Positions 3,919-27,487 are shown, numbered from the stretch's first letter. The stretch is DNA of 37,657 nt from a virus (IMGVR_UViG_2516143071_000007), one strand, 5' to 3'. Numbers and translations: made by a program. Notes: a model not told the origin generated them from the sequence alone.

Positions 3919-4160
3919 CCATTCTGGACTACATCGCCGCCAATCCGGGTTGTAGCGGTAGCGAAATCGCCACAGCACTGAATACCCCAACCACAGCCAT
4001 TAATTCGGAGTTACGCCGACTCTGGCGCGACGGCTTAGTCATCAGAGAAGAACGCAAAACAGGCGGTCGGTTCTCTTACCTGGTAAACCCGATGCCGTTC
4101 GGGTGTGGCAACCCACTTACTCACATGTTTAACCAGCTACTGAAGGAAGCCAGAGCATGA
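3915..4160 (+). CDS. Small winged-helix-like DNA-binding protein, 81 aa
   Basis: Pattern GSEIATALNTPTTAINSELRRLWRDGLV resembles MarR/wHTH recognition helix-wing; CAGGAG Shine-Dalgarno; ATGA coupling. Confidence 0.5.
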   Translation: MTILDYIAANPGCSGSEIATALNTPTTAINSELRRLWRDGLVIREERKTGGRFSYLVNPMPFGCGNPLTHMFNQLLKEARA

Positions 4161-4456
4161 GCACCATCAACCACCAGAAGCTACGCGAACTGGCATTTGC
4201 CCTGCAACGAATGGCAACGCCTCAAAAATTACTGGCATTTCGCGCAATGCTCTCGCCGTCTGCCGTGCTGGCACTGCTGGATGAGCTGGAGCACGCCAGA
4301 ACCACGGCTCCTGCCATTCGCCTGACGCTCCATCATGAAATCGCTGATTTCTGCGCGACGTTGAAGGCGCCAGGCGAACCGGAAACACCGGAAGCAATAC
4401 AGCAAGAGCTGCTGCAACGCATTGACAAGGTTTTTGATTTTTTTCTGAACCAGTAA
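4157..4456 (+). CDS. Hypothetical early protein, 99 aa
   Basis: ORF coupled to the upstream gene (ATGA overlap). Confidence 0.5.
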   Translation: MSTINHQKLRELAFALQRMATPQKLLAFRAMLSPSAVLALLDELEHARTTAPAIRLTLHHEIADFCATLKAPGEPETPEAIQQELLQRIDKVFDFFLNQ

Positions 4457-4559
4457 GAAACCAGAACATGCACACACAAAAAAACCGCTTGCCATGCCGC
4501 AATCAGTCAGGTTACATTTCCGCTGCACCTCATAAAACGGGTGCCGGGATTTCCACCCC

Positions 4560-4770
4560 GCTGACTATACACGCGCACAACCGCGCCAGCGGTTTTTTTG
4601 TGCGTACCGCATCGCCACGTCTTTTTCGCACACGAATTATGGTGGGGCGTATGGGGCCGACTTTGGTCGGGCCGGGTTCGTGTATAGCCGGTTGTGGAAA
4701 CCCTGTACGTCTCACCACCCCGAGTTTTCCACCTCTGGATGGTGAGTTTTCAAAACTTACTATACACGAG
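4560..4770. promoter_or_regulatory. Three copies of CTATACACG in a 320-bp noncoding gap upstream of the replication operon
   Basis: ACTATACACG at 4564-4573 and 4759-4768 (plus), CTATACACG inverted at 4679-4687; no plausible ORF with a ribosome-binding site in the gap. Confidence 0.4.
4579..4600 (+). terminator. Rho-independent terminator candidate
   Basis: AACCGC-GCCA-GCGGTT stem-loop followed by TTTTTTT. Confidence 0.5.
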
Positions 4771-4778
4771 GCCACACC

Positions 4779-5009
4779 ATGGCAAACCGCAAACAACAGC
4801 GCGCATACGCTGCGCGTCGTCACATCCAGACTGAAATCAACCGCAGACTTTACCGCGCATCACGCGTCGCGCAAATCATGCACATCAATATGCTGCATGA
4901 GCGCAGCCACGCACTATCAAACATTTATTCCGCCTCTGTTTTCAGCTATCTGGCGGATGATCTGCACGAGCTTCAACAGCTCATCCAGCAGCAAAACAAA
5001 CTCCATTAA
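4779..5009 (+). CDS. Hypothetical protein, 76 aa
   Basis: ORF immediately after the third CTATACACG site; weak GAGG upstream. Confidence 0.4.
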   Translation: MANRKQQRAYAARRHIQTEINRRLYRASRVAQIMHINMLHERSHALSNIYSASVFSYLADDLHELQQLIQQQNKLH

Positions 5010-5081
5010 TTCCTGTTCCGGGCCTTTCCTGCACCTTGCGGCGGGAGGCCTTCGCACATCTGTAGTAAAGAGAATTGCAGC

Positions 5082-5471
5082 ATGATTGACGCTCATGACT
5101 TCACAAGATGGGTGCGCACACAGGACACCCGTCTGGCTCCCGTTCTTCAGGGGTTATTTGATCTCTACATCCGTGGTCGTGACAACAGAGCACGCACCAC
5201 AAAACCGGAGAATGCAGACACCCTTTATTTCACAGTAGACGACTGCTACCGCGTGGACTTCACACCACACGGACTGGCGTTGCACTGCCTGACACCGCAC
5301 GGCGAATCACTGCTGGCGTATTACGACTCCCCGGCCTCCGTATTTGCAGCAATGCTGGCGCATCGCACTGCTGGCGGGTGTGCCTCGCTGAGTGAATACA
5401 CCGCTGAATTTAACCGCCTTTCCGCCCTCTTCTCGCAGGAGTGGCAGCGCGTGACGGGATACCAGCCATGA
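5082..5471 (+). CDS. Hypothetical protein, 129 aa, coupled to replication gene A (P2 B position)
   Basis: Stop overlaps A start in ATGA; no motif recognised. Confidence 0.5.
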   Translation: MIDAHDFTRWVRTQDTRLAPVLQGLFDLYIRGRDNRARTTKPENADTLYFTVDDCYRVDFTPHGLALHCLTPHGESLLAYYDSPASVFAAMLAHRTAGGCASLSEYTAEFNRLSALFSQEWQRVTGYQP

Positions 5472-8384: not shown

Positions 8385-9344
8385 ATGAAAATTTGTATCG
8401 ACGACGGCTCCACCAACATCAAGCTGGCATGGACTGAGAACGGCGAACGCCGCAACGCCATCAGCCCGAACAGCTTCAAGTCGGAATGGTCTGCGCCGTT
8501 CGGTGGCACGCAGCCCGCGAACTACATGCTTGATGGCGTGCGCTATGGTTTTGATCCGGTCAGCGATCGCTTTGTCCAGACGACCGACACGCAATACCAA
8601 TACAGCGATGTGAATGTCATTGCCATTCATCACGCGCTGGTCAAATCAGGCATCACACCACAGGAGGTGGATGTGGTTGTCACCCTGCCACTGAGCGAGT
8701 ATTTCGACACAAACGCACAGCCGGACATGACCAATATCAACCGCAAAAAAGCGAACGTTATGCGCCCGGTGGAGTACCAGAACGGCGAAGCATTCACTAT
8801 CCGTAACGTACGGGTTATGCCTGAATCCATTCCGGCTGGCTTTAAGGCACTGGCTGACATGAGTCCGTTTGAATCCCTGCTGATTGTGGATTTGGGCGGA
8901 ACCACGCTGGATGTGGCAAAGGTTCAGGGGCAACTGGCAGGTATCAGCCAGGTGTTTTGCGATCCACACGTAGGCGTTTCTCTGATGGCCGATGCCGTAC
9001 TGTCGGTGATGGCCACTAACGGTATGCGCACCAGTCACCACATCGCCAATACCATTATCGAACATCGCCATGATGAAGCCTGGCTGCGCCAGCACATCCA
9101 CAATGACGCGCATTACGCCAGCCTGATGGCGGTTATTCGTGAAAAGGAAGAAACACTGAAACAACGCGTGATCCGCGCGCTGGCGGGTTTTTCGGGTTAC
9201 GGGCGGGTGATGGTTGTCGGTGGTGGGACGGAGATTGTGGCACCCGCTATCCGCGAAGCCTGCGGAGTTAATGCGACTTTCATCGCGGACGGGGTGCCAC
9301 AGTTTGCTCTGGTTAATGGGCTGTACGCAATGGACAAGGAGTAA
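8385..9344 (+). CDS. parM: Actin-like segregation ATPase, ParM/StbA family
   Basis: N-terminal IDDGSTNIKL, SPNSF, YSDVNV, VMPESIPAG, DLGGTTLD, SGY..VMV(V/I)GGG blocks match my recollection of plasmid R1 ParM along the whole length. Confidence 0.8.
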   Translation: MKICIDDGSTNIKLAWTENGERRNAISPNSFKSEWSAPFGGTQPANYMLDGVRYGFDPVSDRFVQTTDTQYQYSDVNVIAIHHALVKSGITPQEVDVVVTLPLSEYFDTNAQPDMTNINRKKANVMRPVEYQNGEAFTIRNVRVMPESIPAGFKALADMSPFESLLIVDLGGTTLDVAKVQGQLAGISQVFCDPHVGVSLMADAVLSVMATNGMRTSHHIANTIIEHRHDEAWLRQHIHNDAHYASLMAVIREKEETLKQRVIRALAGFSGYGRVMVVGGGTEIVAPAIREACGVNATFIADGVPQFALVNGLYAMDKE

Positions 9345-9348
9345 ACCA

Positions 9349-9663
9349 ATGACGACACCAACCAGACGGATAAGTTTCTATCTGAAGCCAGTCGCCGTCA
9401 ATAGTGAACGGGAGGCGTGTAATTACCTCGACAGCCTGCCAGCCTCTGAACGCAGCCGCGCGCAACGCGCGGCCTTTCTGGCCGGGCTGGCACTCATAAA
9501 ACGCGATCCTGCATTTGCCTATTGGTTGGCCGAATGGCCGGAAGAAGGAGCTGCGCCAGCCAAGAATAATATTCAGAGTAAATATGCCAGCGCACCTGCC
9601 ACCGGAAGCAATCACAGCACTAGCGAGATAAGAAAGAACATTCAGTCATTTTTCCCAGAGTGA
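9349..9663 (+). CDS. parR: ParR/StbB-like centromere-binding adaptor, about 104 aa
   Basis: Directly downstream of parM with AGGAG; N-terminal RRISFYLKP...LDSLP..ERSR..RAAFLAGLAL resembles R1 ParR ribbon-helix-helix N-terminus from memory. Confidence 0.6.
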   Translation: MTTPTRRISFYLKPVAVNSEREACNYLDSLPASERSRAQRAAFLAGLALIKRDPAFAYWLAEWPEEGAAPAKNNIQSKYASAPATGSNHSTSEIRKNIQSFFPE

Positions 9664-14702: not shown

Positions 14703-15755
14703 ATGAATCTGGTGATGTCAGATATTACCCGCAACAAGCTGGGTTGCTATATGGCGCAGCAGGCGTCGCTTAACAATATCCCGGTATCTGCACTGGTATC
14801 GCGATTTACCGTGGAACCCGCGGTGCAGCAGCGTTTTGAAAACGCCTCAAAGGAAAGTACCGAATTTACGAAAAGAATTAACGTGATCGGCGTGACCGAC
14901 CAGAAAGGCGAAAAAATCCTCCCGGACACCACCGGGCCAATTGCGCGCACGAATAGCAGTTATGACGGCATCAAACGCCGTAACCCGAATAACGTGATCG
15001 ATATGAAGTCTCGTCAGTACCAGTGCGAACAGGTGAACTACGATACCTTTATTTCGTACCCACAGCTTGATACCTGGGCGGCCCACAGCGATTTTCAGTC
15101 CCGTATCAGTACACAGATCGCCCGGCAGGTAGCGCTTGATCGCATCATGATTGGCTTTAACGGCACATCCCACGCCTACGAGTCTGATTTTCACACCAAC
15201 AAGCTGCTTCAGGACGTTAACGTGGGCTGGCTGGAGCACATCAGAACCGATGCCAGCGAGCGCGTAATGAATGACGTGACGCTGACCTCCCGCAACATGG
15301 ACAACACTGTGGCGCACGCGGGTAAGTATGCGAATGCCGATGCTCTGGTACAGGATGCGCGCTCATCCCTGCTGGACGAATGGCACAAGGAAGCTGACGA
15401 CCTCGTGGTGATTATGGGGCGCAACCTGTTTAACTCGCTGCGTCTGCCCGTGCTGAACAGCATCAGCGGCCAGAATCCCAATGCGGAATTACTTGCCGGG
15501 CAGCTCATCCTGTCATCGCGCACCATTGGCGGGCTGGGCGTGTTCCTTGCGCCGTTCTTCCCGGATGCAACGATGCTGATCACCTCGTTCAACAACCTGT
15601 CGATTTACTGGCAGAAAGGTTCAATGCGTCGCCTGATGAAAGACGAGCCGGAATACAACCGCATCGCCACCTACCAGTCCATCAATGACGCTTATGTCGT
15701 TGAAGACTATGGCAAGTGCGCGATGGTCACTGGCCTGAAGTTCGCCGACAGCTAA
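14703..15755 (+). CDS. N: Major capsid protein, P2 gpN family
   Basis: Blocks FTVEP, GEKI, DYVVEDY, LSIY match recalled P2 gpN; AGGAG Shine-Dalgarno. Confidence 0.9.
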   Translation: MNLVMSDITRNKLGCYMAQQASLNNIPVSALVSRFTVEPAVQQRFENASKESTEFTKRINVIGVTDQKGEKILPDTTGPIARTNSSYDGIKRRNPNNVIDMKSRQYQCEQVNYDTFISYPQLDTWAAHSDFQSRISTQIARQVALDRIMIGFNGTSHAYESDFHTNKLLQDVNVGWLEHIRTDASERVMNDVTLTSRNMDNTVAHAGKYANADALVQDARSSLLDEWHKEADDLVVIMGRNLFNSLRLPVLNSISGQNPNAELLAGQLILSSRTIGGLGVFLAPFFPDATMLITSFNNLSIYWQKGSMRRLMKDEPEYNRIATYQSINDAYVVEDYGKCAMVTGLKFADS

Positions 15756-15765
15756 TCAACTCACG

Positions 15766-15784
15766 GCGGGCATCATGCCCGCCT
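15766..15784 (+). other. GC-rich stem-loop between capsid and small-terminase genes
   Basis: GGCGGGCATCATGCCCGCC palindrome; no T-run, so more likely an mRNA processing/stability element than a terminator. Confidence 0.35.
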
Positions 15785-15800
15785 GTAACGGAGAGAAAAA

Positions 15801-16601
15801 ATGATTACTCCTGCACAACAACACTGGCAGAACGTGATGGCACAGCGCGCAGGCCGGGCGAATGAAGGTGTGGACCACGCCGCGCGTACCGCGCATGAAG
15901 AGGTGCTGTATCGTCTGCGTCTGGCACAGGCCAGACTAAAGGGCGTACAGGCCAGAAGCGCGAAAGCCGCCATCAAAAAAGAGTTGTTGCCGGATTTTTC
16001 CGGCTGGATTGAGGGAACGCTGGAAGCTGACGGCGGGCAGCAGGATGAAGTGATTGCCACGCTGATGGTGTGGGCGATTGACTGTGGCGATCTTCCGCTT
16101 GCGCTGCGTATCGGCGCGTATGTGGTCCATCACAACCTCATCATGCCGGATAACTTTGGCCGTACTGCTGCCACGGTACTGACCGAAGAAATCTGTAATC
16201 CGGTACTGACACAGGCCGGGACGGATGCCGACGCGGATTTGTCCGCCTTTATCGAACCACTGGACACCCTCCGGGAGATTGTCGCCAACCAGGACATGCC
16301 GGACGAAGTGCGCGCCAAATTATGCAAAGCGTGCGCCTTTGCCCGCCGTGGCCTGACCGATGCGGACAGCATGGCCTCATCACTGAAGCTGCTGCGCGAA
16401 GCAATGCACCTGAACCCGAACGCAGGTGTGAAACGCGAGATTGCAACCCTTTCCCGCGCCCTGAAAAAAGCCGATTCCGCAGCCGCACCAGAAGATGCCA
16501 GCACACCGCAGGCGCAGGACGAAAGCAGCAAAAGTAAAAAGACAACGCGGAAGCCTGCAACACGAAAAACCACCGCGACGCAGAAGGCGAAGCGCGGTTA
16601 A
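15801..16601 (+). CDS. M: Terminase small/endonuclease subunit, P2 gpM family
   Basis: Blocks PAQ.H, KKELLP, MPDEVRAKL, GVKKEI match recalled P2 gpM; basic C-terminus. Confidence 0.85.
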   Translation: MITPAQQHWQNVMAQRAGRANEGVDHAARTAHEEVLYRLRLAQARLKGVQARSAKAAIKKELLPDFSGWIEGTLEADGGQQDEVIATLMVWAIDCGDLPLALRIGAYVVHHNLIMPDNFGRTAATVLTEEICNPVLTQAGTDADADLSAFIEPLDTLREIVANQDMPDEVRAKLCKACAFARRGLTDADSMASSLKLLREAMHLNPNAGVKREIATLSRALKKADSAAAPEDASTPQAQDESSKSKKTTRKPATRKTTATQKAKRG

Positions 16602-16617
16602 CGACTGACCCCGTCAG

Positions 16618-16689
16618 CGGGCGGCGTGCGCGGTGTTCCGGTTTGACTCCGTGACCGTTTACACCGCGCACCCACCGCCCGATTTTTTC
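16618..16689 (+). terminator. Long imperfect hairpin plus T-run between M and L (terminator/attenuator candidate)
   Basis: GGCGGCGTGCGCGGTG...CACCGCGCACCCACCGCC followed by GATTTTTTC. Confidence 0.5.
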
Positions 16690-16702
16690 AGGAGTGAACC
16701 CC

Positions 16703-17197
16703 ATGAGTATGGTTGCCAGAACCAACCCCGGACCCGCAGAGGACGACATAACCGATACCGATGATGGTGATACCCGTATTTCAGCGGGTGCATTCTGGCC
16801 GGATATTGTGCTGCGTGAGCTGCGTCTGGCGGTACGACTGCCGGGCCGCGTGACCACCTCCCGCCTGCTGCATACTGCCACCGGGGCTGTGGCTCACGTT
16901 ACCCGCGAACTGGAAGCGTGGCAGCAGGAACAGCAGGCGGCTGGCCATCAGACGCTGGCCGATGTTCCGGCACCCGTAATTAACGGAGAAAGCGTCAATC
17001 TCTGGCACTGGCGCAATGCTGTTTATACCGCCACACGTGCCCTGATTCTGGAGCGTTACCGCGATGCGGACACAACGGACAAGGGCGATCGCCGGGCGGA
17101 CGCACTGGATATACAGACATCGGATTTGTGGCGCGATGTGAGCTGGGCCATCTCTGACATTCTGTGCCGCCCGCGAATCTTTGCGGAGTTGTGCTGA
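16703..17197 (+). CDS. L: Head completion/stabilisation protein, P2 gpL family
   Basis: Synteny after M; GGAG 8 nt upstream of ATG 16703 (ORF track begins at an in-frame GTG at 16694). Confidence 0.75.
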   Translation: MSMVARTNPGPAEDDITDTDDGDTRISAGAFWPDIVLRELRLAVRLPGRVTTSRLLHTATGAVAHVTRELEAWQQEQQAAGHQTLADVPAPVINGESVNLWHWRNAVYTATRALILERYRDADTTDKGDRRADALDIQTSDLWRDVSWAISDILCRPRIFAELC

Positions 17198-17397
17198 TGA
17201 AAGTGAAGGCACTGGAAGGCGACACCGTGGATTCGCTCTGTTTCCGGTACTACGGCACGACGCAGGGCGTCACCGAAAAGGTGCTGGATGCCAACCCCGG
17301 ACTCTGTCAGCAGGTATTTCTGGACGCCGGGCAGGACGTGGAGATGCCGGAGCCGGAGAAGAAGAAACGAGAAATGATTCAGTTGTGGGGGGAGTAG
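17197..17397 (+). CDS. X: Tail protein X, P2 gpX family
   Basis: MKVKALEGDTVDSLCFRYYGTTQGV..VLDANPGL resembles recalled P2 gpX; ATG overlaps L stop. Confidence 0.8.
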   Translation: MKVKALEGDTVDSLCFRYYGTTQGVTEKVLDANPGLCQQVFLDAGQDVEMPEPEKKKREMIQLWGE

Positions 17398-18516: not shown

Positions 18517-18658
18517 CCCACCCACATGGGGAAACCTCGGAATATGGGGCGACCGCCTTCTGGATGCACTGGAAACCTGTAACGCGGATAAACGGGCCAT
18601 TGCTGAACTGGATAAGAGAATAGCCGAACTGACACACCAGACGGGAGTAACACAATGA
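18377..18658 (+). CDS. o-spanin, Rz1 / P2 LysC-like lipoprotein
   Basis: Starts in the +1 frame inside Rz; signal MNAPTLCLTLVLLTGCAG with LTGC lipobox; Pro-rich; extends past the Rz stop. Confidence 0.65.
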   Translation: MNAPTLCLTLVLLTGCAGTQNAPGPAPSVRLIPQTLTMPVTPPPFPDPPTWGNLGIWGDRLLDALETCNADKRAIAELDKRIAELTHQTGVTQ

Positions 18659-20535
18659 CCAGTAAGAACTTTGCACTGATTACAGCCATGACACAGGCTG
18701 AACTGACTCAAAAGGTGAATGAACATCTTGCGAAAGGGTGGCATCTTCAGGGGGAGACGCGGGTTGCCTACGAACCCGGCACCCCGTGGTATCTAATGCA
18801 GGCAATGGTGGCCGATGGCACTACAGACATCTCACCTGATTCCCCCCAGCACGGCAGCGTGCCGGAGTGGTATTACGTGGTGGTACTTGCTGGTCAATCC
18901 AATGCCATGTCATATGGTGATGGAATGCCGCTGCCGGATTCTTACGATGCGCCCCACCCACGCATTAAGCAACTGGCCCGTCGCAACACAGTGACTCCCG
19001 GTGGTAAAGCATGCGCATTTAACGACATCATTCCGGCAGACCACTGCCTGCATGATGTTCAGGATATGAGCGCACTGAATCATCCGAAGGCAGACCTGAG
19101 CAAAGGGCAGTACGGCTGTGTCGGCCAGGGCTTACATATTGCCAAAAAACTGCTTCCGTATATCCCGAATAACGCGGGGATCCTGCTGGTACCATGCTGT
19201 CGTGGTGGTTCGGCATTCACCCAGGGCGCGGAGGGGACATTCAGTGCGGACACGGGGGCCAGCCAGGATTCGGCACGCTGGGGTGTGGGTAAACCGTTAT
19301 ATCAGGACCTGATCGCACGCACCAAAGCGGCATTACAGAAGAACCCGAAAAATGTGTTGCTGGCGGTGTGCTGGATGCAGGGCGAATTTGACATGAGCGC
19401 TGCCACCTACGCACAGCAACCGGACCTGTTCACGGCCATGCTGAAGCAGTTCCGTACTGACCTTTCCGGATTTAACGCGCAGTGCCATGGCGGCAGTGCT
19501 GCAGTTGTACCGTGGATTTGTGGCGACACGACATATTACTGGAAAAACACATACGGCACACAGTATGACTCCGTCTACGGCGCGTACAAAAACAGGGAGA
19601 GCGACAACGTTTTCTTTGTGCCGTTCATGACCGACGGTAACGGCAACAACACGCCCACCAACTTACCGGCAGAAGACCCGGATATTGCTGATGCAGGTTA
19701 TTACGGCGCGCAATCCCGTAGTAATGGTAATTGGGTATCGTCAAATCGTCCGACACATTTCAGTTCATGGGCGCGCAGGGGCATTATTTCGGATCGCCTG
19801 GCAACCGCTATTCTGAACGCAGTTGGTCGAACCAGCGCCTTCATCAGCGGTACCGCACCGGAGATTAAACCCTCGCCCGGCGGCGACACTCCATCGGGGC
19901 CGTCTGATGGTGACACATCCGTTCGTACAGTCTCCCTGCTGCCGACAGCCGGAGAGGCTGCTGCGCAGGGCTGGACCATCACCGGCGGCAGTGTTGCGCT
20001 GGAAGATGGTGTGTTTAAGGTTACCAAGCAGAGCAATAAAACCTGGTCCCTGATGCATCCGGTGGATGACGCAGTCTCCCTGCTGACACGGGGTGGCAGA
20101 CTGAGCTGTAAGTTTCGACTGTCAGGCGCACTGACCAACAACCAGTTCGGTCTGGGAATTTATCTGTATACCGATGTAGCGTTACCTGACGTCGTGGCGA
20201 TGACCGGGACTGGTAACCCGTTCCTGATGTCGTTCTTCACCCAGACCACAGACGGCAAACTGAATCTGATGCATCACAAGAAAGCCGGAAACACAAAGTT
20301 GGGCGAGTTCGGGAATTACAGTAACGACTGGCAGACGCTGGAGCTGGTGTTCACCGCCGGCAGTGCCACGGTTACTCCGAAACTGAATGGAGTGGCTGGC
20401 CCGGCATTCCAGGTCATAAAAGACAGTCTGACACTGGGGCTGAATGCGCTGACGTTAACTGATATCACTAAAAATGCCGCGTACGGCGTCGATATCGGCA
20501 GCCTGGTGCTGGAAATCAATAATCCCGCAGCATAA
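18655..20535 (+). CDS. NanS-p-like sialate O-acetylesterase (DUF1737 N-domain, SGNH/SASA esterase core, C-terminal lectin-like domain)
   Basis: AGQSNAMSYG matches the GQSNM catalytic-serine motif of the sialate O-acetylesterase family; N-terminus resembles DUF1737; ATGA coupling to Rz1 stop. Confidence 0.65.
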   Translation: MTSKNFALITAMTQAELTQKVNEHLAKGWHLQGETRVAYEPGTPWYLMQAMVADGTTDISPDSPQHGSVPEWYYVVVLAGQSNAMSYGDGMPLPDSYDAPHPRIKQLARRNTVTPGGKACAFNDIIPADHCLHDVQDMSALNHPKADLSKGQYGCVGQGLHIAKKLLPYIPNNAGILLVPCCRGGSAFTQGAEGTFSADTGASQDSARWGVGKPLYQDLIARTKAALQKNPKNVLLAVCWMQGEFDMSAATYAQQPDLFTAMLKQFRTDLSGFNAQCHGGSAAVVPWICGDTTYYWKNTYGTQYDSVYGAYKNRESDNVFFVPFMTDGNGNNTPTNLPAEDPDIADAGYYGAQSRSNGNWVSSNRPTHFSSWARRGIISDRLATAILNAVGRTSAFISGTAPEIKPSPGGDTPSGPSDGDTSVRTVSLLPTAGEAAAQGWTITGGSVALEDGVFKVTKQSNKTWSLMHPVDDAVSLLTRGGRLSCKFRLSGALTNNQFGLGIYLYTDVALPDVVAMTGTGNPFLMSFFTQTTDGKLNLMHHKKAGNTKLGEFGNYSNDWQTLELVFTAGSATVTPKLNGVAGPAFQVIKDSLTLGLNALTLTDITKNAAYGVDIGSLVLEINNPAA

Positions 20536-24004: not shown

Positions 24005-26137
24005 ATGAGTACCACAACACGAAAATTTAAAACCGTTATCACCGATACAGGTGCCCAAAAATTAGCTCAGGCAGCCGCGCCAGATGGTAAGCCTGTCCGC
24101 CTGACTCATATGGCCGTGGGCGACGGTGGCGGCGCGTTGCCCACACCAGACAGTAAGCAGACCCGTCTGGTGCATGAGGTGTGGCGACACACTGTTAATC
24201 GCGTCATCCTGGACGCAACACATCAGAACCGCATTATTGCGGAGCTGGTTATTCCTCCAGAAACGGGCGGATTCTGGATCCGGGAAATTGGTGTGTTTGA
24301 TGAGCACGGCGATTTAATCGCGGTGGGCAATACTGCCGAAAGTTACAAGCCAGCCGTTGCCGAAGGGTCCGGACGTGCACAAACATTTCGCACCATTCTG
24401 ACCGTATCCAGCACTGCCACTGTGGCGCTTACCGTGGATAACACCATGGTTATGGCCACAGTGGATTACGTGAATGACAAACTGAAAGAACATGAACAGT
24501 CACGACATCACCCGGACGCCTCGCTGACCGCAAAAGGCTTTGTTCAACTCAGTAGCGCCACTAACAGCGATTCTGAAACGCTGGCTGCAACGCCGAAAGC
24601 GGTTAAGGCAGCGTATGACATGGCTAACGGAAAATATACCGCTCAGGACGCCACTACGGCACAAAAAGGGATAGTCCAGCTCAGCAGTGCAACCAACAGT
24701 ACATCTGAAACGCTGGCGGCAACATCAAATGCAGTAAAAGCTGCCTATGACAATGCTGAAAAACGTCTGCAGAAAGCTAAGAATGGTGAGGATATCTCTG
24801 ATAAAGACACCTTTACGAAAAATATCGGTGCCTGCCGTGCATATAGTGCAGAGCTGAATATTGGTGGAGATAGTGAAGCATGGACAACTGCGCAGTTGAT
24901 TTTTTGGCTAGAGAGTCAGGGGGCATTTAACCATCCTTACTGGATGTGCAAAGGCTCATGGGCTTATGCAAATAATAAGGTCATTACAGATACAGGTTGC
25001 GGAAGTATTTGTCTTGCAGGTGCTGTTGTGGAAGTTATTGGCACCCGCGGCGCAATGACCATACGCATTACCACACCGAGTACATCCAGCGGTGAAGGCA
25101 TCCCTAATGCTCAATTTACTTATATTAATCATGGTGATGCTTATGCTCCTGGCTGGCGAAGGGACTATAACTCCAGGAATAAGCCAACAGCATCAGAGAT
25201 CGGGGCGTTACCGTCAGATGGGACAGCAGTATCGTCAGTTAATCTGGCTTCAAAAGGTCGGCTGACCGCCCTGACAGATAATATGCAGGGGGCCACAGGT
25301 CTGGAGTTATACGAGGCGTATAACAACGGATATCCAACAACGTATGGAAATATCATTCACCTGAAAGGGATGACAGCCGTTGGCGAAGGCGAATTACTCA
25401 TCGGCTGGAGTGGTATAAGCGGTGCTCATGCTCCGGCATTTATTCGTTCACGACGGGATACGACCGACGCAAACTGGTCGCCGTGGGCGCAGCTTTACAC
25501 CTCGGCTCATCCTCCTGAAGAGTTTTATCCAGTCGGTGCACCGATTCCGTGGCCATCAGATACCGTTCCGTCTGGTTATGCCCTGATGCAGGGGCAGACT
25601 TTTGACAAATCTGCATACCCGAAACTTGCAGTCGCTTATCCGTCAGGCGTGATCCCTGATATGCGTGGCTGGACTATCAAGGGCAAACCTGCCAGTGGTC
25701 GTGCCGTATTGTCTCAGGAACAGGACGGCATTAAATCGCACACCCACAGCGCCAGCGCATCCAGTACTGATTTGGGGACGAAAACCACATCGTCGTTTGA
25801 TTACGGTACTAAAACGACCAGTTCATTTGATTACGGCACAAAAACTACGAATAGCGCTGGAAATCATTCACACAATATACCTGTTGGTCACACTGGCGCG
25901 GGGAATGGTGTATCAGCCGGTTTTAACGCTGCGTTAGGTACTGGTACCACGTCGAGCGCAGGCGGGCATGCTCACAATGTATATATCGGTGCCCATAACC
26001 ACACTATCGGCATTGGTGCTCATGCCCATTCTGTCATTATTGGTCCCCACGGACACACCATCACCGTTAACGCTACGGGTAACGAAGAAAACACCGTAAA
26101 AAACATCGCATTTAACTATATTGTGAGGCTTGCATAA
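24005..26137 (+). CDS. H: Tail fibre protein, P2 gpH family with divergent C-terminal receptor-binding region
   Basis: Two copies of the phage-fibre repeat [23 protein letters not shown]; His-rich C-terminal repeats ([34 protein letters not shown]). Confidence 0.85.
25775..25852 (+). repeat. In-frame 30-bp tandem repeat inside H encoding [10 protein letters not shown] about 2.6 times
   Basis: Units at 25775-25804 and 25805-25834 plus a partial third; the units differ at several synonymous positions. Confidence 0.7.
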
Positions 26138-26715
26138 TGACATTCAGAATGAGTGAACAATCACGGACCATAAAAATTTATAATCTACTGGCTGGAACCA
26201 ATGAGTTTATTGGTGAAGGTGATGCATACATTCCACCTCATACAGGTCTGCCTGCAAACAGTACCGATATTGCCCCGCCAGATATTCCGGCTGGCTTCGT
26301 GGCCGTTTTCAACAGTGATGAGGCATCGTGGAATCTCGTTGAAGACCATCGGGGAAAAACCGTCTATGACGTGGCTTCCGGCGACGCGTTATTTATTTCT
26401 GAACTTGGCCCATTACCGGAAAATGTCACCTGGTTATCCCCGGAAGGGGAGTTTCAGAAGTGGAACGGCACAGCCTGGGTGAAAGATGCAGAAGCAGAAA
26501 AACTGTTCCGGATCCGGAAGGCGGAAGAAACAAAAAACAGCCTGATGCAGATGGCCAGTGAGCATATTGCGCCACTTCAGGATGCCGTAGATTTGGATAT
26601 TGCGACGGAGGAAGAGGCATCGTTACTGACTGCATGGAAGACATATCGGGTATTGTTGAATCGTGTTGATACAACAGTAGCATCGGATGTTGAGTGGCCA
26701 GTCGCCCCGCAATAA
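26137..26715 (+). CDS. G: Tail fibre assembly chaperone, P2 gpG / Tfa family
   Basis: Follows H with TAATG overlap; 192 aa; Tfa-like N-terminus ([30 protein letters not shown]). Confidence 0.8.
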
Positions 26716-26758
26716 AAGGATAAAGCCATCGATAGAAATATTGATGGCTTCATGTACT

Positions 26759-27364
26759 CTATTTATACAATACAACACCGCTCTTTTTTGTTATATATGT
26801 GCAGTTCGATGGTATATCTTTATTTATAAAAGACATTGCACCTATTTTTACATTATCCCCAATTTTACGTGATAATCCAATGATGCAACAATTGGCTCCG
26901 ATATCAACGTTATTACCAATTTTTACTCTTGAACCAGGCATGTCACCATCTATCTGTCCAATGGTAGTATTCTGTCGTAACACCAGATTTTCACCAGCAT
27001 CAACAGCAAAATGAACAACAATTCCAGCATGATGGGGAATTGTTAACCCTTTTCCAATATTTGCGCCCAATCCAATTTCACAACCAAATTTGTTAATTAT
27101 TTTACCGTTTAACTTTTTGGCTGCTTTCTTATGTAATTTATTACCATTAATATACATTTCGTTAGCCAACCGCCACCAGAAAAGGAAATTCCGGTTACGC
27201 TGTTTTTTCTCTCTTAAAAGCCTCCAGATATCCATACGTTTCCGCCGAATTACTTCATATTTCCAGAAGTTTTTTAAATTAGTAGAGTCCCCAAATAAAA
27301 CAAAGTGAATTGCCATTAAGTAAGACAGCACGATAATCTCCTTAATTATTATTTCAGACCACAC
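26759..27364 (-). CDS. Hexapeptide-repeat (left-handed beta-helix) O-acetyltransferase, CysE/WcaB-like; AT-rich cargo
   Basis: IGxxxxIG hexapeptide repeats (IGLGANIGKGLTIPHHAGIVV..., IGNNVDIGANCCIIG, IGDNVKIGAMS); start uncertain (27364 or internal ATG 27316); strongly AT-rich. Confidence 0.65.
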   Translation of the reverse strand: MWSEIIIKEIIVLSYLMAIHFVLFGDSTNLKNFWKYEVIRRKRMDIWRLLREKKQRNRNFLFWWRLANEMYINGNKLHKKAAKKLNGKIINKFGCEIGLGANIGKGLTIPHHAGIVVHFAVDAGENLVLRQNTTIGQIDGDMPGSRVKIGNNVDIGANCCIIGLSRKIGDNVKIGAMSFINKDIPSNCTYITKKSGVVLYK

Positions 27365-27487
27365 ATATTATAAGGTTAAGAGATTATAAAATCCTGTTGT
27401 TTATTATTCAAAAACAATTTTCTGAGAAGGACATACAACAGCAAGTCGCCAGTCACCTTCATCAGGAAATTGGCGACATACGTTAAA

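What the first reader, a model, noticed from the sequence alone, without database searches (positions are those of the whole stretch)
26716..27487. AT-rich hexapeptide O-acetyltransferase at the G/F junction (Z/fun-equivalent hotspot)
A strongly AT-rich gene encodes a left-handed beta-helix acetyltransferase of the CysE/WcaB type, with its own hairpin terminators on both sides. It sits where P2 carries the exclusion gene Z/fun. Such enzymes typically O-acetylate surface polysaccharides, so the likely role is lysogenic conversion or receptor masking. The same phage also carries an O-acetyl esterase, giving an acetylation/deacetylation pair in one element.
Basis: partly seen in the sequence, partly recalled or inferred. 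Interest (0 to 1): 0.6.

Follow-up and report, generated by a model that had tools for sequence, protein, structure and literature searches.

The report
Prophage acetyltransferase beside tail-fibre genes
A P2-like prophage of outbreak E. coli O104:H4 carries a small acquired gene for an acetyl-transferring enzyme that databases call a "serine acetyltransferase"; its residues and its neighbours in other genomes suggest it instead modifies the cell-surface lipopolysaccharide that phage tail fibres bind, but this is untested.

Summary
Bases 26716-27487 are a 772-bp AT-rich cassette (GC 0.34 against 0.52) lying exactly between the stop codons of tail-fibre-assembly gene G and tail gene U. It holds one minus-strand gene (26759-27331, 190 aa) with a strong ribosome-binding site, a sigma-70-like promoter and a hairpin on each side.

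The protein has a serine-acetyltransferase fold (confident AlphaFold model; every top PDB match is a serine acetyltransferase). It keeps the catalytic His/acid pair but lacks the serine-binding residues and the CysK-binding tail. It scores far below the curated CysE, WcaB and EpsC cut-offs. dN/dS is 0.13-0.20, so it is a working gene.

The family is compact and lives on mobile elements. In P2-, P1- and Mu-like prophages and in baseplate-wedge (Phage_Wedge1) myovirus prophages it sits directly beside the tail-fibre or fibre-assembly genes, usually tail-to-tail. In one P1-like phage it lies inside the invertible fibre segment. Elsewhere it is paired with LPS-core enzymes (waa locus, WaaZ, GT25, GT9, HtrL).

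Best reading, at about 0.4: a lysogenic-conversion acetyltransferase acting on LPS core. It is a new member of a known kind and of moderate interest.

The "G/F junction" label is inexact. The esterase elsewhere in the prophage is NanS-p, with no evidence that it is a partner.

The parts
26759..27331 (-). Coding sequence of the SAT-fold hexapeptide acetyltransferase (190 aa, GTG start, TAA stop; WP_000954195.1). Residues 1-82 form a helical domain and about 84-185 a left-handed beta-helix. The putative catalytic residues are H100 and E85.
   Evidence: ORF. RefSeq annotation. PHROG 2154, 1.7e-87. Family alignments. Profile against PDB serine acetyltransferases. AlphaFold pLDDT 93.9 with Foldseek matches. 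dN/dS 0.13-0.20.
27338..27343 (-). Ribosome-binding site AAGGAG, 6 nt before the GTG start.
   Evidence: Sequence. Conserved in alleles of 71-92% protein identity.
27383..27411 (-). Sigma-70-like promoter: TTGAAT, 17 nt, TATAAT (10 of 12 matches). A second TATAAT lies at about 27366-27371.
   Evidence: Consensus scan (the number of sites in the region is not above chance). Nearly identical in the 71%-identity allele of L106. Function not shown.
26723..26750 (.). 12-bp-stem hairpin in the 43-nt spacer between the converging stop codons of G and the acetyltransferase gene. Likely a bidirectional terminator.
   Evidence: Folds on both strands, about -16 kcal/mol, z -4.6. The same roughly 44-nt tail-to-tail spacing occurs in JL22 and Ro157c2YLVW.
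27436..27485 (-). Hairpin directly after the U stop codon. Likely the terminator of the tail operon, insulating the acetyltransferase promoter.
   Evidence: -20.8 kcal/mol, z -4.7. Similarity to P88 starts only at 27482.
26137..26715 (+). Tail-fibre assembly gene G (Tfa), convergent partner of the acetyltransferase gene.
   Evidence: Caudo_TAP 8e-43. Annotation.
25524..27323 (.). 1.8-kb block shared at 95.9% with P1-like phages. It covers the fibre tip (roughly from the Collar domain onward), G, and the acetyltransferase ORF up to 8 nt before its start.
   Evidence: blastn against JL22, Ro157c2YLVW and L167. Collar domain at H residues 511-558.
27488..27982 (-). Tail gene U, the right-hand neighbour. 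It is the last gene of the inverted FI-FII-E-T-U block.
   Evidence: Phage_P2_GpU 5.5e-39. Annotation.

Best explanation
The gene is a prophage 'moron', meaning a self-contained acquired gene that the phage does not need. It is transcribed from its own promoter in the lysogen. It encodes a soluble, acetyl-CoA-dependent O-acetyltransferase with a serine-acetyltransferase fold, but it is not a serine acetyltransferase.

The most likely substrate is a sugar of the lipopolysaccharide core, or a closely related envelope glycan intermediate, acetylated at the cytoplasmic face of the inner membrane. The result would be an altered LPS surface (lysogenic conversion).

The gene travels with the receptor-binding end of tail-fibre modules. 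The likely pay-off is therefore masking of the LPS receptor used by such fibres. That would exclude superinfecting relatives and stop progeny phage being wasted on lysogens and cell debris.

Shown:
- gene anatomy
- fold
- retained catalytic His and acidic residue
- loss of the serine-binding residues
- purifying selection
- residence on mobile elements
- recurrent position next to fibre and fibre-assembly genes
- recurrent pairing with LPS-core enzymes

Inferred:
- expression in the lysogen
- the substrate
- the effect on adsorption
For: Enzyme:
- The profile of 25 family members matches solved serine acetyltransferases at 6.5e-24.
- The model has pLDDT 93.9, and its top 50 PDB matches are all serine acetyltransferases, TM 0.65-0.73.
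- H100 aligns with CysE H158 and is present in at least 90% of 97 members. E85 aligns with D143.

Not a serine acetyltransferase:
- CysE D157 aligns with P99. R192 and H193 align with S134 and R135, in a loop that is variable and rich in indels across the family.
- There is no C-terminal tail.
- Scores are far under the curated cut-offs: TIGR01172 61.5 against 210.65, WcaB 55.5 against 194.65, EpsC 75.5 against 150.

Functional gene: dN/dS 0.13-0.20 in seven pairwise comparisons.

Link to fibres:
- The 3' ends of the acetyltransferase gene and of tfa converge within 70 nt in 12 of 41 clusters (90% identity) of family loci. These span 37-100% protein identity.
- The gene is also next to fibre genes in Buttiauxella, Xenorhabdus, Morganella, Proteus and a Mu-like Salmonella prophage, and in L192 and L200.
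- It lies inside the 602-nt inverted repeats of the invertible C segment of P1-like JL22.

Link to LPS core:
- Leminorella: waaP-waaB-waaI-waaY-waaZ-[homologue, 48% identity], then convergent waaL.
- Halomonas: a WaaZ homologue (E 3e-50) directly upstream of a homologue.
- Xenorhabdus prophage: homologue followed by Glyco_transf_25 on the same strand.
- Morganella prophage: homologue plus Glyco_transf_9.
- L192: an HtrL/YibB gene lies between the homologue and tfa.
- Rosenbergiella: next to an Acyl_transf_3+SGNH glycan acetyltransferase.

Own signals: promoter, ribosome-binding site and hairpins.
Against: - There is no experimental evidence of any kind. The papers that mention the gene call its role unknown or simply 'fitness'.
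- The LPS-core link rests on about six loci. Most chromosomal homologues are orphans among unrelated genes.
- The end of the fibre operon is a generally permissive place for cargo, as P2 fun(Z) shows. Position alone therefore does not prove a functional link.
- Acetyltransferase and Tfa alleles reassort. Against JL22, dS is 0.31 for the acetyltransferase and 0.008 for tfa; against L183 it is 0.34 and 2.39. There is thus no allele-for-allele pairing.
- Other family members sit at prophage ends after hok or int, or on plasmids that are not known to use LPS-binding adhesins, such as an IncFIB EHEC plasmid.
- The promoter match is no better than chance for so AT-rich a region.
- From background knowledge, O-acetyl groups have not been reported on E. 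coli core types, though standard deacylating work-ups would remove them.
Confidence: 0.4

Rival explanations
1. The same kind of enzyme, but acting on another envelope polysaccharide (O-antigen unit, colanic acid, enterobacterial common antigen or capsule) rather than the LPS core. It would still give lysogenic conversion.
For: The best curated-model similarities are to polysaccharide acetyltransferases EpsC and WcaB. A Pseudomonas homologue lies between a GT2 glycosyltransferase and a UDP-glucose dehydrogenase-type gene. A Rosenbergiella homologue lies next to an OafA-type acetyltransferase. NeuO is a precedent.
Against: All scores are far under the cut-offs. The cassette is nearly identical in O104:H4, O157:H7 and O111:H8, which from background knowledge have different O-antigens, so an O-unit-specific enzyme is unlikely. 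Of the neighbouring carbohydrate genes, WaaZ/waa, GT9 and HtrL are families linked to the LPS core, and Pfam describes GT25 as an LPS biosynthesis family.
Confidence: 0.15
2. An anti-phage defence or counter-defence factor that acetylates a non-glycan target, such as a protein, a nucleotide signal or a phage component.
For: It is a standalone, AT-rich gene carried by phages, phage-plasmids and conjugative plasmids, sometimes next to toxin-antitoxin or abortive-infection genes. P2-like phages are rich in defence cargo.
Against: No PADLOC model matches. The gene is not in the P2 old/tin hotspot. The main text of two P2 hotspot papers does not mention an acetyltransferase. Chromosomal members sit inside LPS-core loci.
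Confidence: 0.12
3. A small-molecule acetyltransferase, for example sugar or xenobiotic detoxification like maltose or galactoside acetyltransferases, giving the host a metabolic benefit.
For: There are weaker matches to maltose and galactoside O-acetyltransferases. Many homologues are orphans without partner genes.
Against: The N-terminal helical domain and the best structural matches are of the serine-acetyltransferase type, not the Maa/LacA type. This reading gives no explanation for the recurring position beside fibre genes or LPS-core enzymes.
Confidence: 0.1
4. A genuine serine O-acetyltransferase, as annotated, acting as an auxiliary metabolic gene that boosts O-acetylserine and cysteine synthesis.
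For: RefSeq name. The nearest solved structures are all CysE enzymes, and the catalytic His and acid are kept.
Against: The serine-binding residues D157, R192 and H193 are not conserved. TIGR01172 scores 61.5 against 210.65 and PRK11132 36.6 against 397. Only about 82 N-terminal residues precede the beta-helix, and the profile match starts at about residue 110-139 of the CysE chains. There is no CysK-binding tail.
Confidence: 0.05
5. A decaying hitch-hiker with no function.
For: AT-rich foreign DNA. Truncated copies exist, for example 141-aa and 120-aa fragments, and copies cut by IS1 on plasmids.
Against: dN/dS is 0.13-0.20. The ORF is intact in 495 of 5426 complete E. coli genomes in this exact arrangement. 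The ribosome-binding site and promoter are conserved.
Confidence: 0.03

Closest known systems
NeuO, the polysialic-acid O-acetyltransferase of E. coli K1 prophage CUS-3 (PMC3046976, PMC13001214)
   Same: A prophage-borne, soluble hexapeptide-repeat O-acetyltransferase that modifies a surface glycan serving as a phage receptor. A 2026 paper reports that this acetylation raises resistance to phage.
   Different: NeuO is not among the 59 PDB sequences matched at E up to 1, so the relationship is at superfamily level only. NeuO is phase-variable through 5' heptanucleotide repeats (background knowledge); no repeats are found here. The substrate here is unknown and probably LPS core, not capsule.
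CysE serine O-acetyltransferase (for example PDB 1t3d, 6wye)
   Same: Same fold, including part of the helical N-domain. The catalytic His and acidic residue are conserved.
   Different: Serine-binding residues are lost. The N-domain is shortened. There is no CysK-binding tail. Scores are far below the curated cut-offs. The gene is mobile-element cargo and not part of the cys regulon.
WcaB (colanic acid) and EpsC polysaccharide acetyltransferases
   Same: Short SAT-like enzymes of polysaccharide pathways. They are the best NCBIfam similarities.
   Different: Scores are 55 against 195 and 75 against 150. The gene is not in a wca or eps cluster. Neighbours are fibre genes or LPS-core genes.
P2 fun(Z)
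   Same: A non-essential cargo gene directly downstream of G and convergent with it. P2's record describes it as lysogenic conversion that blocks T5.
   Different: Fun(Z) spans 15675-17261 in the P2 record (about 528 codons) and is flanked by the FI promoter. Here the flank is U. Sequence relationship was not tested.
Membrane O-antigen modifiers of temperate phages (Sf6 Oac, P22/SfV GtrABC) and receptor blockers placed next to receptor-binding genes (T5 Llp, Cor); from background knowledge
   Same: The same logic: a prophage changes or hides the receptor so that related phages, and its own progeny, do not adsorb to the lysogen.
   Different: Those are membrane or lipoproteins acting in the periplasm or at the outer membrane. 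This is a cytoplasmic acetyl-CoA enzyme, and its effect on adsorption is untested.

Membership tests
Hexapeptide-repeat (left-handed beta-helix) acyltransferase superfamily | Hexapeptide repeats detectable by profile | tested here: met
   This protein is sub-threshold on Pfam (23.7 and 17.8 bits against 27). Most homologues carry precomputed PF00132/PF14602 hits, and the family profile matches many hexapeptide enzymes.
Hexapeptide-repeat (left-handed beta-helix) acyltransferase superfamily | Beta-helix fold with a catalytic histidine | tested here: met
   AlphaFold pLDDT 93.9. All top Foldseek matches are beta-helix acetyltransferases. H100 aligns with CysE H158 and is at least 90% conserved.
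CysE serine O-acetyltransferase | Score above the curated equivalog cut-off | tested here: not met
   TIGR01172 61.5 against 210.65; PRK11132 36.6 against 397.
CysE serine O-acetyltransferase | Catalytic Asp143/His158 pair | tested here: met
   E85 and H100 align with them. An acidic residue occupies position 85 in all 25 sequences of alignment A1.
CysE serine O-acetyltransferase | Serine-binding residues Asp157, Arg192, His193 (roles from background knowledge of CysE structures) | tested here: not met
   They align with P99, S134 and R135. These columns are variable or gapped across the family.
CysE serine O-acetyltransferase | Full N-terminal helical domain and a C-terminal CysK-binding tail | tested here: not met
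   Only about 82 residues precede the beta-helix, and matches start at about residue 110-139 of the CysE chains. The protein ends about 10 residues after the last coil.
CysE serine O-acetyltransferase | Acetylates L-serine; complements cysE | not testable with these tools
   Needs an enzyme assay or genetics.
WcaB / EpsC polysaccharide acetyltransferases | Score above the curated cut-off and location in the cognate gene cluster | tested here: not met
   WcaB 55.5 against 194.65; EpsC 75.5 against 150. Neighbours are phage genes.
NeuO-type phase-variable prophage O-acetyltransferase | Tandem short repeats in the 5' coding region | tested here: not met
   No tandem repeats in 26650-27550 at minimum score 30.
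NeuO-type phase-variable prophage O-acetyltransferase | Close sequence relationship to NeuO | tested here: not met
   No NeuO or polysialate entry among the 59 PDB sequences at E up to 1 or the 60 best profile hits.
P2 fun(Z)-position cargo | Directly downstream of G, on the opposite strand | tested here: met
   P2 record compared with the window.
P2 fun(Z)-position cargo | Lies between G and the FI promoter | tested here: not met
   The right flank is U. FI-FII-E-T-U is inverted. In P88 the site holds an invertible fibre segment plus an invertase.
Known anti-phage defence systems (PADLOC 2.0) | Match to any defence protein model | tested here: not met
   0 families at E up to 0.01.
PHROG 2154 (phage protein family of unknown function) | Full-length profile match | tested here: met
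   1.7e-87, residues 13-190 against profile positions 3-181 of 185.
LPS-core modification enzyme (proposed) | Encoded in or next to LPS-core biosynthesis genes | tested here: inconclusive
   True for homologues in Leminorella, Halomonas, Xenorhabdus, Morganella and L192. Not true for the window copy or for most orphan homologues.
LPS-core modification enzyme (proposed) | Adds O-acetyl to core oligosaccharide | not testable with these tools
   Needs LPS chemistry.

The most novel reading that the evidence does not exclude
The family is a general 'edit your own receptor' device of mobile elements that dock on the LPS core. Carriers would include myovirus tail fibres (P2-, P1-, Mu-like and baseplate-wedge types) and possibly the thin pili of I-complex conjugative plasmids. 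The gene is carried next to, or even inside, the recombination-shuffled adhesin cassettes. Host-range determinants and the matching self-exclusion by LPS-core O-acetylation would then be inherited together. This would be a previously unrecognised and common LPS-core modification in E. coli, including EHEC.
Probability: 0.2. Interest if true: 0.7.

Novelty: new member of a known kind. Interest (0 to 1): 0.45.

Why it matters
The exact G / acetyltransferase / U arrangement is in 495 of 5426 complete E. coli genomes, including O104:H4, O157:H7 and O111:H8. Relatives are on 376 plasmids in PLSDB. Everywhere the gene is named "serine acetyltransferase", a name that the residue and score tests here do not support.

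If it acetylates LPS core, three things follow. It would be an unrecognised, widespread lysogenic-conversion trait that changes phage susceptibility, which matters for phage therapy and phage typing. It could also change recognition of LPS by antibodies or the host. And it would add a cytoplasmic SAT-fold enzyme to the list of phage receptor-masking tools.

The conserved placement beside fibre cassettes also makes the gene a handy marker for the boundaries of host-range modules.

Tried and rejected
- **Defence-system libraries.** PADLOC gave no match for this gene, for the DUF3800 gene or for NanS-p.
- **Literature.** Ten searches were attempted; two reading calls failed on a term format and were repeated. 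They turned up only annotation-level mentions: JL22 "reason unknown", Citrobacter phiNP "fitness" and a figure legend for S. thermophilus 987-group phages. The two P2 hotspot papers do not mention an acetyltransferase in their main text.
- **Relics of an invertible segment in the window.** There is no AAACCNNGGTTT-type crossover core with up to one mismatch, and no long inverted repeats. The arrangement here is fixed.
- **Phase-variation repeats.** None found.
- **Acetyltransferase/esterase pair.** Rejected as a functional pair. The esterase is NanS-p, in a different operon. Nothing in any locus examined links the two genes. Co-occurrence of NanS-p was not scored.
- **Sialic-acid O-acetylation.** From background knowledge the O104 antigen carries O-acetylated sialic acid, so this was considered. 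It is unlikely, because the same cassette is in O157:H7 and O111:H8 and similarity to NeuD-type enzymes is marginal (1.1e-07, 31.6 bits against a cut-off of 160.8, C-terminal region only).
- **Strict co-evolution of acetyltransferase and Tfa alleles.** Not seen; dS values are discordant.
- **First AlphaFold run.** A 25-sequence alignment gave a poor beta-helix (pLDDT 74). It was replaced by a 97-sequence run.
- **Most chromosomal contexts.** Citrobacter, Erwinia, Pantoea and several Pseudomonas loci were uninformative.
- **The upstream 261-aa ORF in Pseudomonas L016.** It is not WaaZ-like.

Full report
**Where the window comes from.** The window is 100% identical to a P2-like prophage of E. 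coli O104:H4 outbreak-lineage genomes. RefSeq places it between btuC and ihfA. Its nearest named relatives are P88-like phages, genus Xuanwuvirus.

Gene order follows P2 up to H (tail fibre, 24005-26137) and G (fibre assembly, 26137-26715). After that the FI-FII-E-T-U block lies on the opposite strand. G therefore converges on U (27488-27982), not on FI.

**The observation.** Bases 26716-27487 are exactly the interval between the G and U stop codons. GC is 0.342 against 0.523 for the window. This is the second lowest 772-nt stretch, after another cargo gene.

One minus-strand gene fills the interval. RefSeq starts it at GTG 27331 (190 aa). AAGGAG lies 6 nt upstream, and this motif and start are conserved in alleles of 71-92% identity, so this start is preferred over the longer ORF from 27364.

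A TTGAAT-17-TATAAT promoter-like site lies at 27411-27383. It is nearly identical in the 71%-identity allele, although such matches are not rarer than chance in this AT-rich stretch.

Two hairpins are present, each with z about -4.6 to -4.7:
- 26723-26750, between the converging stop codons; it folds on both strands.
- 27436-27485, just after U.

There are no tandem repeats.

**What the protein is.**
- Pfam hexapeptide hits are just under threshold.
- The best curated NCBIfam models are all far below their cut-offs: EpsC 75.5 against 150, CysE 61.5 against 210.65, WcaB 55.5 against 194.65.
- A profile of 25 family members matches solved serine acetyltransferases at 6.5e-24.
- A 97-sequence AlphaFold model is confident (pLDDT 93.9, pTM 0.88). 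Its 50 best PDB matches are all serine acetyltransferases (TM 0.65-0.73), and the alignments include part of the N-terminal helical domain.
- H100 aligns with the catalytic His158 of CysE and is at least 90% conserved. E85 aligns with Asp143.
- The residues that hold serine in CysE (their roles are background knowledge) are not kept. Asp157 aligns with Pro99. Arg192 and His193 align with Ser134 and Arg135, in a loop that is variable and full of indels across the family.
- The N-domain is shortened and there is no C-terminal tail.

The protein therefore works like an acetyl-CoA-dependent O-acetyltransferase but fails the membership tests for CysE, WcaB and EpsC. It does belong to PHROG 2154, a phage family of unknown function (1.7e-87).

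The family is compact. Only 18 of 1.84 billion cluster representatives match at E up to 1e-30, and 371 at up to 1e-10. dN/dS is 0.13-0.20 in seven comparisons, so the gene is under purifying selection.

**Where the family lives.** Almost all contexts examined are mobile elements.

| Context | Arrangement |
|---|---|
| P88-like prophages | Same G / gene / U site for a 71%-identity allele, sometimes with an extra SAM-methyltransferase and a tfa fragment |
| P1-like JL22 and Ro157c2YLVW | tfa and the gene tail-to-tail, same roughly 44-nt spacer |
| Citrobacter phiNP (44% identity), Hafnia yong2 (37%), E. coli 613R2 (37%) | Same convergent tfa arrangement |
| Buttiauxella; Proteus (baseplate-wedge type); Salmonella (Mu-like) prophages | Convergent with the fibre or tfa gene |

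Among all family loci collected, 12 of 41 clusters (90% identity) have tfa converging within 70 nt. Several more have fibre genes as the next neighbour.

The block 25524-27323 covers the fibre tip (roughly from the Collar domain onward), G, and the acetyltransferase ORF up to 8 nt before its start. It is shared at 95.9% with P1-like phages.

In JL22 the gene lies inside the 602-nt inverted repeats of the invertible C segment. P88 itself has an invertible fibre segment plus an invertase at the G/U site.

Linkage is positional, not allelic: acetyltransferase and tfa show discordant dS.

Other members sit at prophage ends after hok or int. Others are on virulence plasmids among IS elements. In all, 376 PLSDB plasmids carry a relative, 247 of them conjugative. 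The three I-complex (IncK2/Z, MPF_I) plasmids sampled share a repA - toxin-antitoxin - gene - ProQ/FinO arrangement.

**Clues to the substrate.**
- In Leminorella grimontii a 48%-identity homologue lies in the LPS-core locus: waaP, waaB, waaI, waaY, waaZ, the homologue, then convergent waaL.
- In a Halomonas genome a WaaZ homologue (E 3e-50) lies directly upstream of a homologue.
- In Xenorhabdus prophages the gene is followed on the same strand by a family-25 LPS glycosyltransferase, and the pair converges on the tail fibre.
- In a Morganella prophage it is followed by a family-9 (heptosyltransferase-type) gene.
- In L192 an HtrL/YibB gene lies between it and tfa.
- In Rosenbergiella it neighbours an OafA-type acetyltransferase.
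- Most other chromosomal homologues are uninformative orphans.

**Interpretation.** The best-supported model is a lysogenic-conversion enzyme that O-acetylates the LPS core, or a closely related envelope glycan, from the cytoplasmic side. Its pay-off would be changing the receptor surface seen by LPS-binding tail fibres.

The enzyme class, the loss of serine specificity, selection, mobility and the two recurring neighbourhoods are shown. Expression, substrate and effect on adsorption are inferred. I put this model at about 0.4. The rivals are:
- another polysaccharide as substrate
- defence or counter-defence through a non-glycan target
- small-molecule acetylation
- true serine acetyltransferase activity
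- decay

The closest precedent is NeuO of prophage CUS-3. It is a hexapeptide O-acetyltransferase that modifies the K1 capsule and is reported to raise phage resistance. NeuO is only a distant relative and is phase-variable, which this gene is not.

- P2 fun(Z) is indeed a minus-strand gene convergent with G, so the positional analogy holds on the G side only.
- The 626-aa ORF at 18655-20535 is NanS-p, a sialate 9-O-acetylesterase (3pt5 2.8e-123; 6yp6; SASA domain). It lies in another operon, and nothing ties it to the acetyltransferase.

**Verdict.** This is a real, functional and widespread cargo gene that is misnamed in databases. It is a new, uncharacterised member of the known class of prophage surface-glycan acetyltransferases, with an unusually consistent link to tail-fibre cassettes and suggestive links to LPS-core genes. 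Interest is moderate (0.45).

Noticed in passing
window 18655-20535 (+): A 626-aa ORF between the lysis genes and the tail genes is a NanS-p-type sialate 9-O-acetylesterase. It has DUF1737, SASA and DUF6645 domains, and matches PDB 3pt5 (NanS) at 2.8e-123 and 6yp6 (NanS-p) at 3.9e-30. RefSeq labels it only 'DUF6645 domain-containing protein'.
   Followed up: partly
window 34422-35591 (-): A DUF3800 gene (389 aa, phrog_12991) lies between gene D and ogr. It is the most AT-rich stretch of the window (GC 0.31). This is a second cargo gene, with no PADLOC match and unknown function.
   Followed up: partly
window about 35849-36829: RefSeq annotates an IS5-like ISKpn26 transposase inserted between the DUF3800 gene and ogr.
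   Followed up: no
window 8385-9663 (+): ParM and a partition-family protein occupy the variable locus between replication gene A and portal gene Q, which corresponds to the P2 old/tin hotspot. Rousset et al. 2022 report a putative plasmid partitioning system in about a quarter of P2-like phages.
   Followed up: partly
window 27488-34330: The FI-FII-E-T-U block is inverted relative to P2, while D (33089-34330) stays on the plus strand. RefSeq starts D only at 33530 (266 aa) and adds a small pseudogene fragment, whereas an ORF of 413 aa with a Phage_GPD match runs from 33089. This may be an annotation error.
   Followed up: partly
L002 (phage JL22) 2402-7865: In this P1-like phage-plasmid, 602-nt inverted repeats (99% complementary) enclose S, U, the acetyltransferase gene and tfa. 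The gene would flip together with the host-range switch. In one orientation it would be co-directional with the expressed S-U fibre genes.
   Followed up: partly
L120 (phage P88) 1767-4471; L121 (Shae_phiSM): At the site where the window has the acetyltransferase, P88-like phages carry a second, inverted fibre-tip/tfa set plus a DNA invertase. This resembles the invertible host-range segments of Mu (G) and P1 (C).
   Followed up: partly
L106-L111, about 4117-5105: Some P88-like prophages have an 87-aa tfa fragment and a 222-aa SAM-dependent methyltransferase gene between the full tfa and the acetyltransferase gene. This is further cargo at the same spot and a scar of recombination within tfa.
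   Followed up: no
L206, L207, L209 (IncK2/Z MPF_I plasmids); Homologues of 52-56% identity sit in a conserved repA - toxin-antitoxin - gene - ProQ/FinO arrangement on I-complex conjugative plasmids. Papers on related IncI2 thin pili report that their PilV adhesins recognise recipient surface receptors including LPS. A role in donor surface exclusion is conceivable but untested.
   Followed up: partly
L098-L105: A 50%-identity homologue lies on E. coli plasmids among IS66 and other IS elements, near genes with IpaB_EvcA and EspF family hits. These are virulence-plasmid-like contexts.
   Followed up: no
L009 (S. thermophilus phage 9871) 4920-5447: A distant relative (32% identity over the beta-helix) follows the last tail or receptor-binding structural gene on the same strand, before the holin genes, in 987-group dairy phages. 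This echoes the 'next to the receptor-binding gene' placement in a Gram-positive system.
   Followed up: no
L090-L097; window 37474-37614: A 57%-identity paralogue sits at the far end of other P2-like prophages, just after hok/gef and next to a copper-ATPase-type host gene. The window has hok/gef at that end but no second copy.
   Followed up: no
window 24514-24757: Two 112-nt direct repeats (71% identity) lie inside H. They correspond to the two Phage_fiber_2 repeat matches.
   Followed up: no
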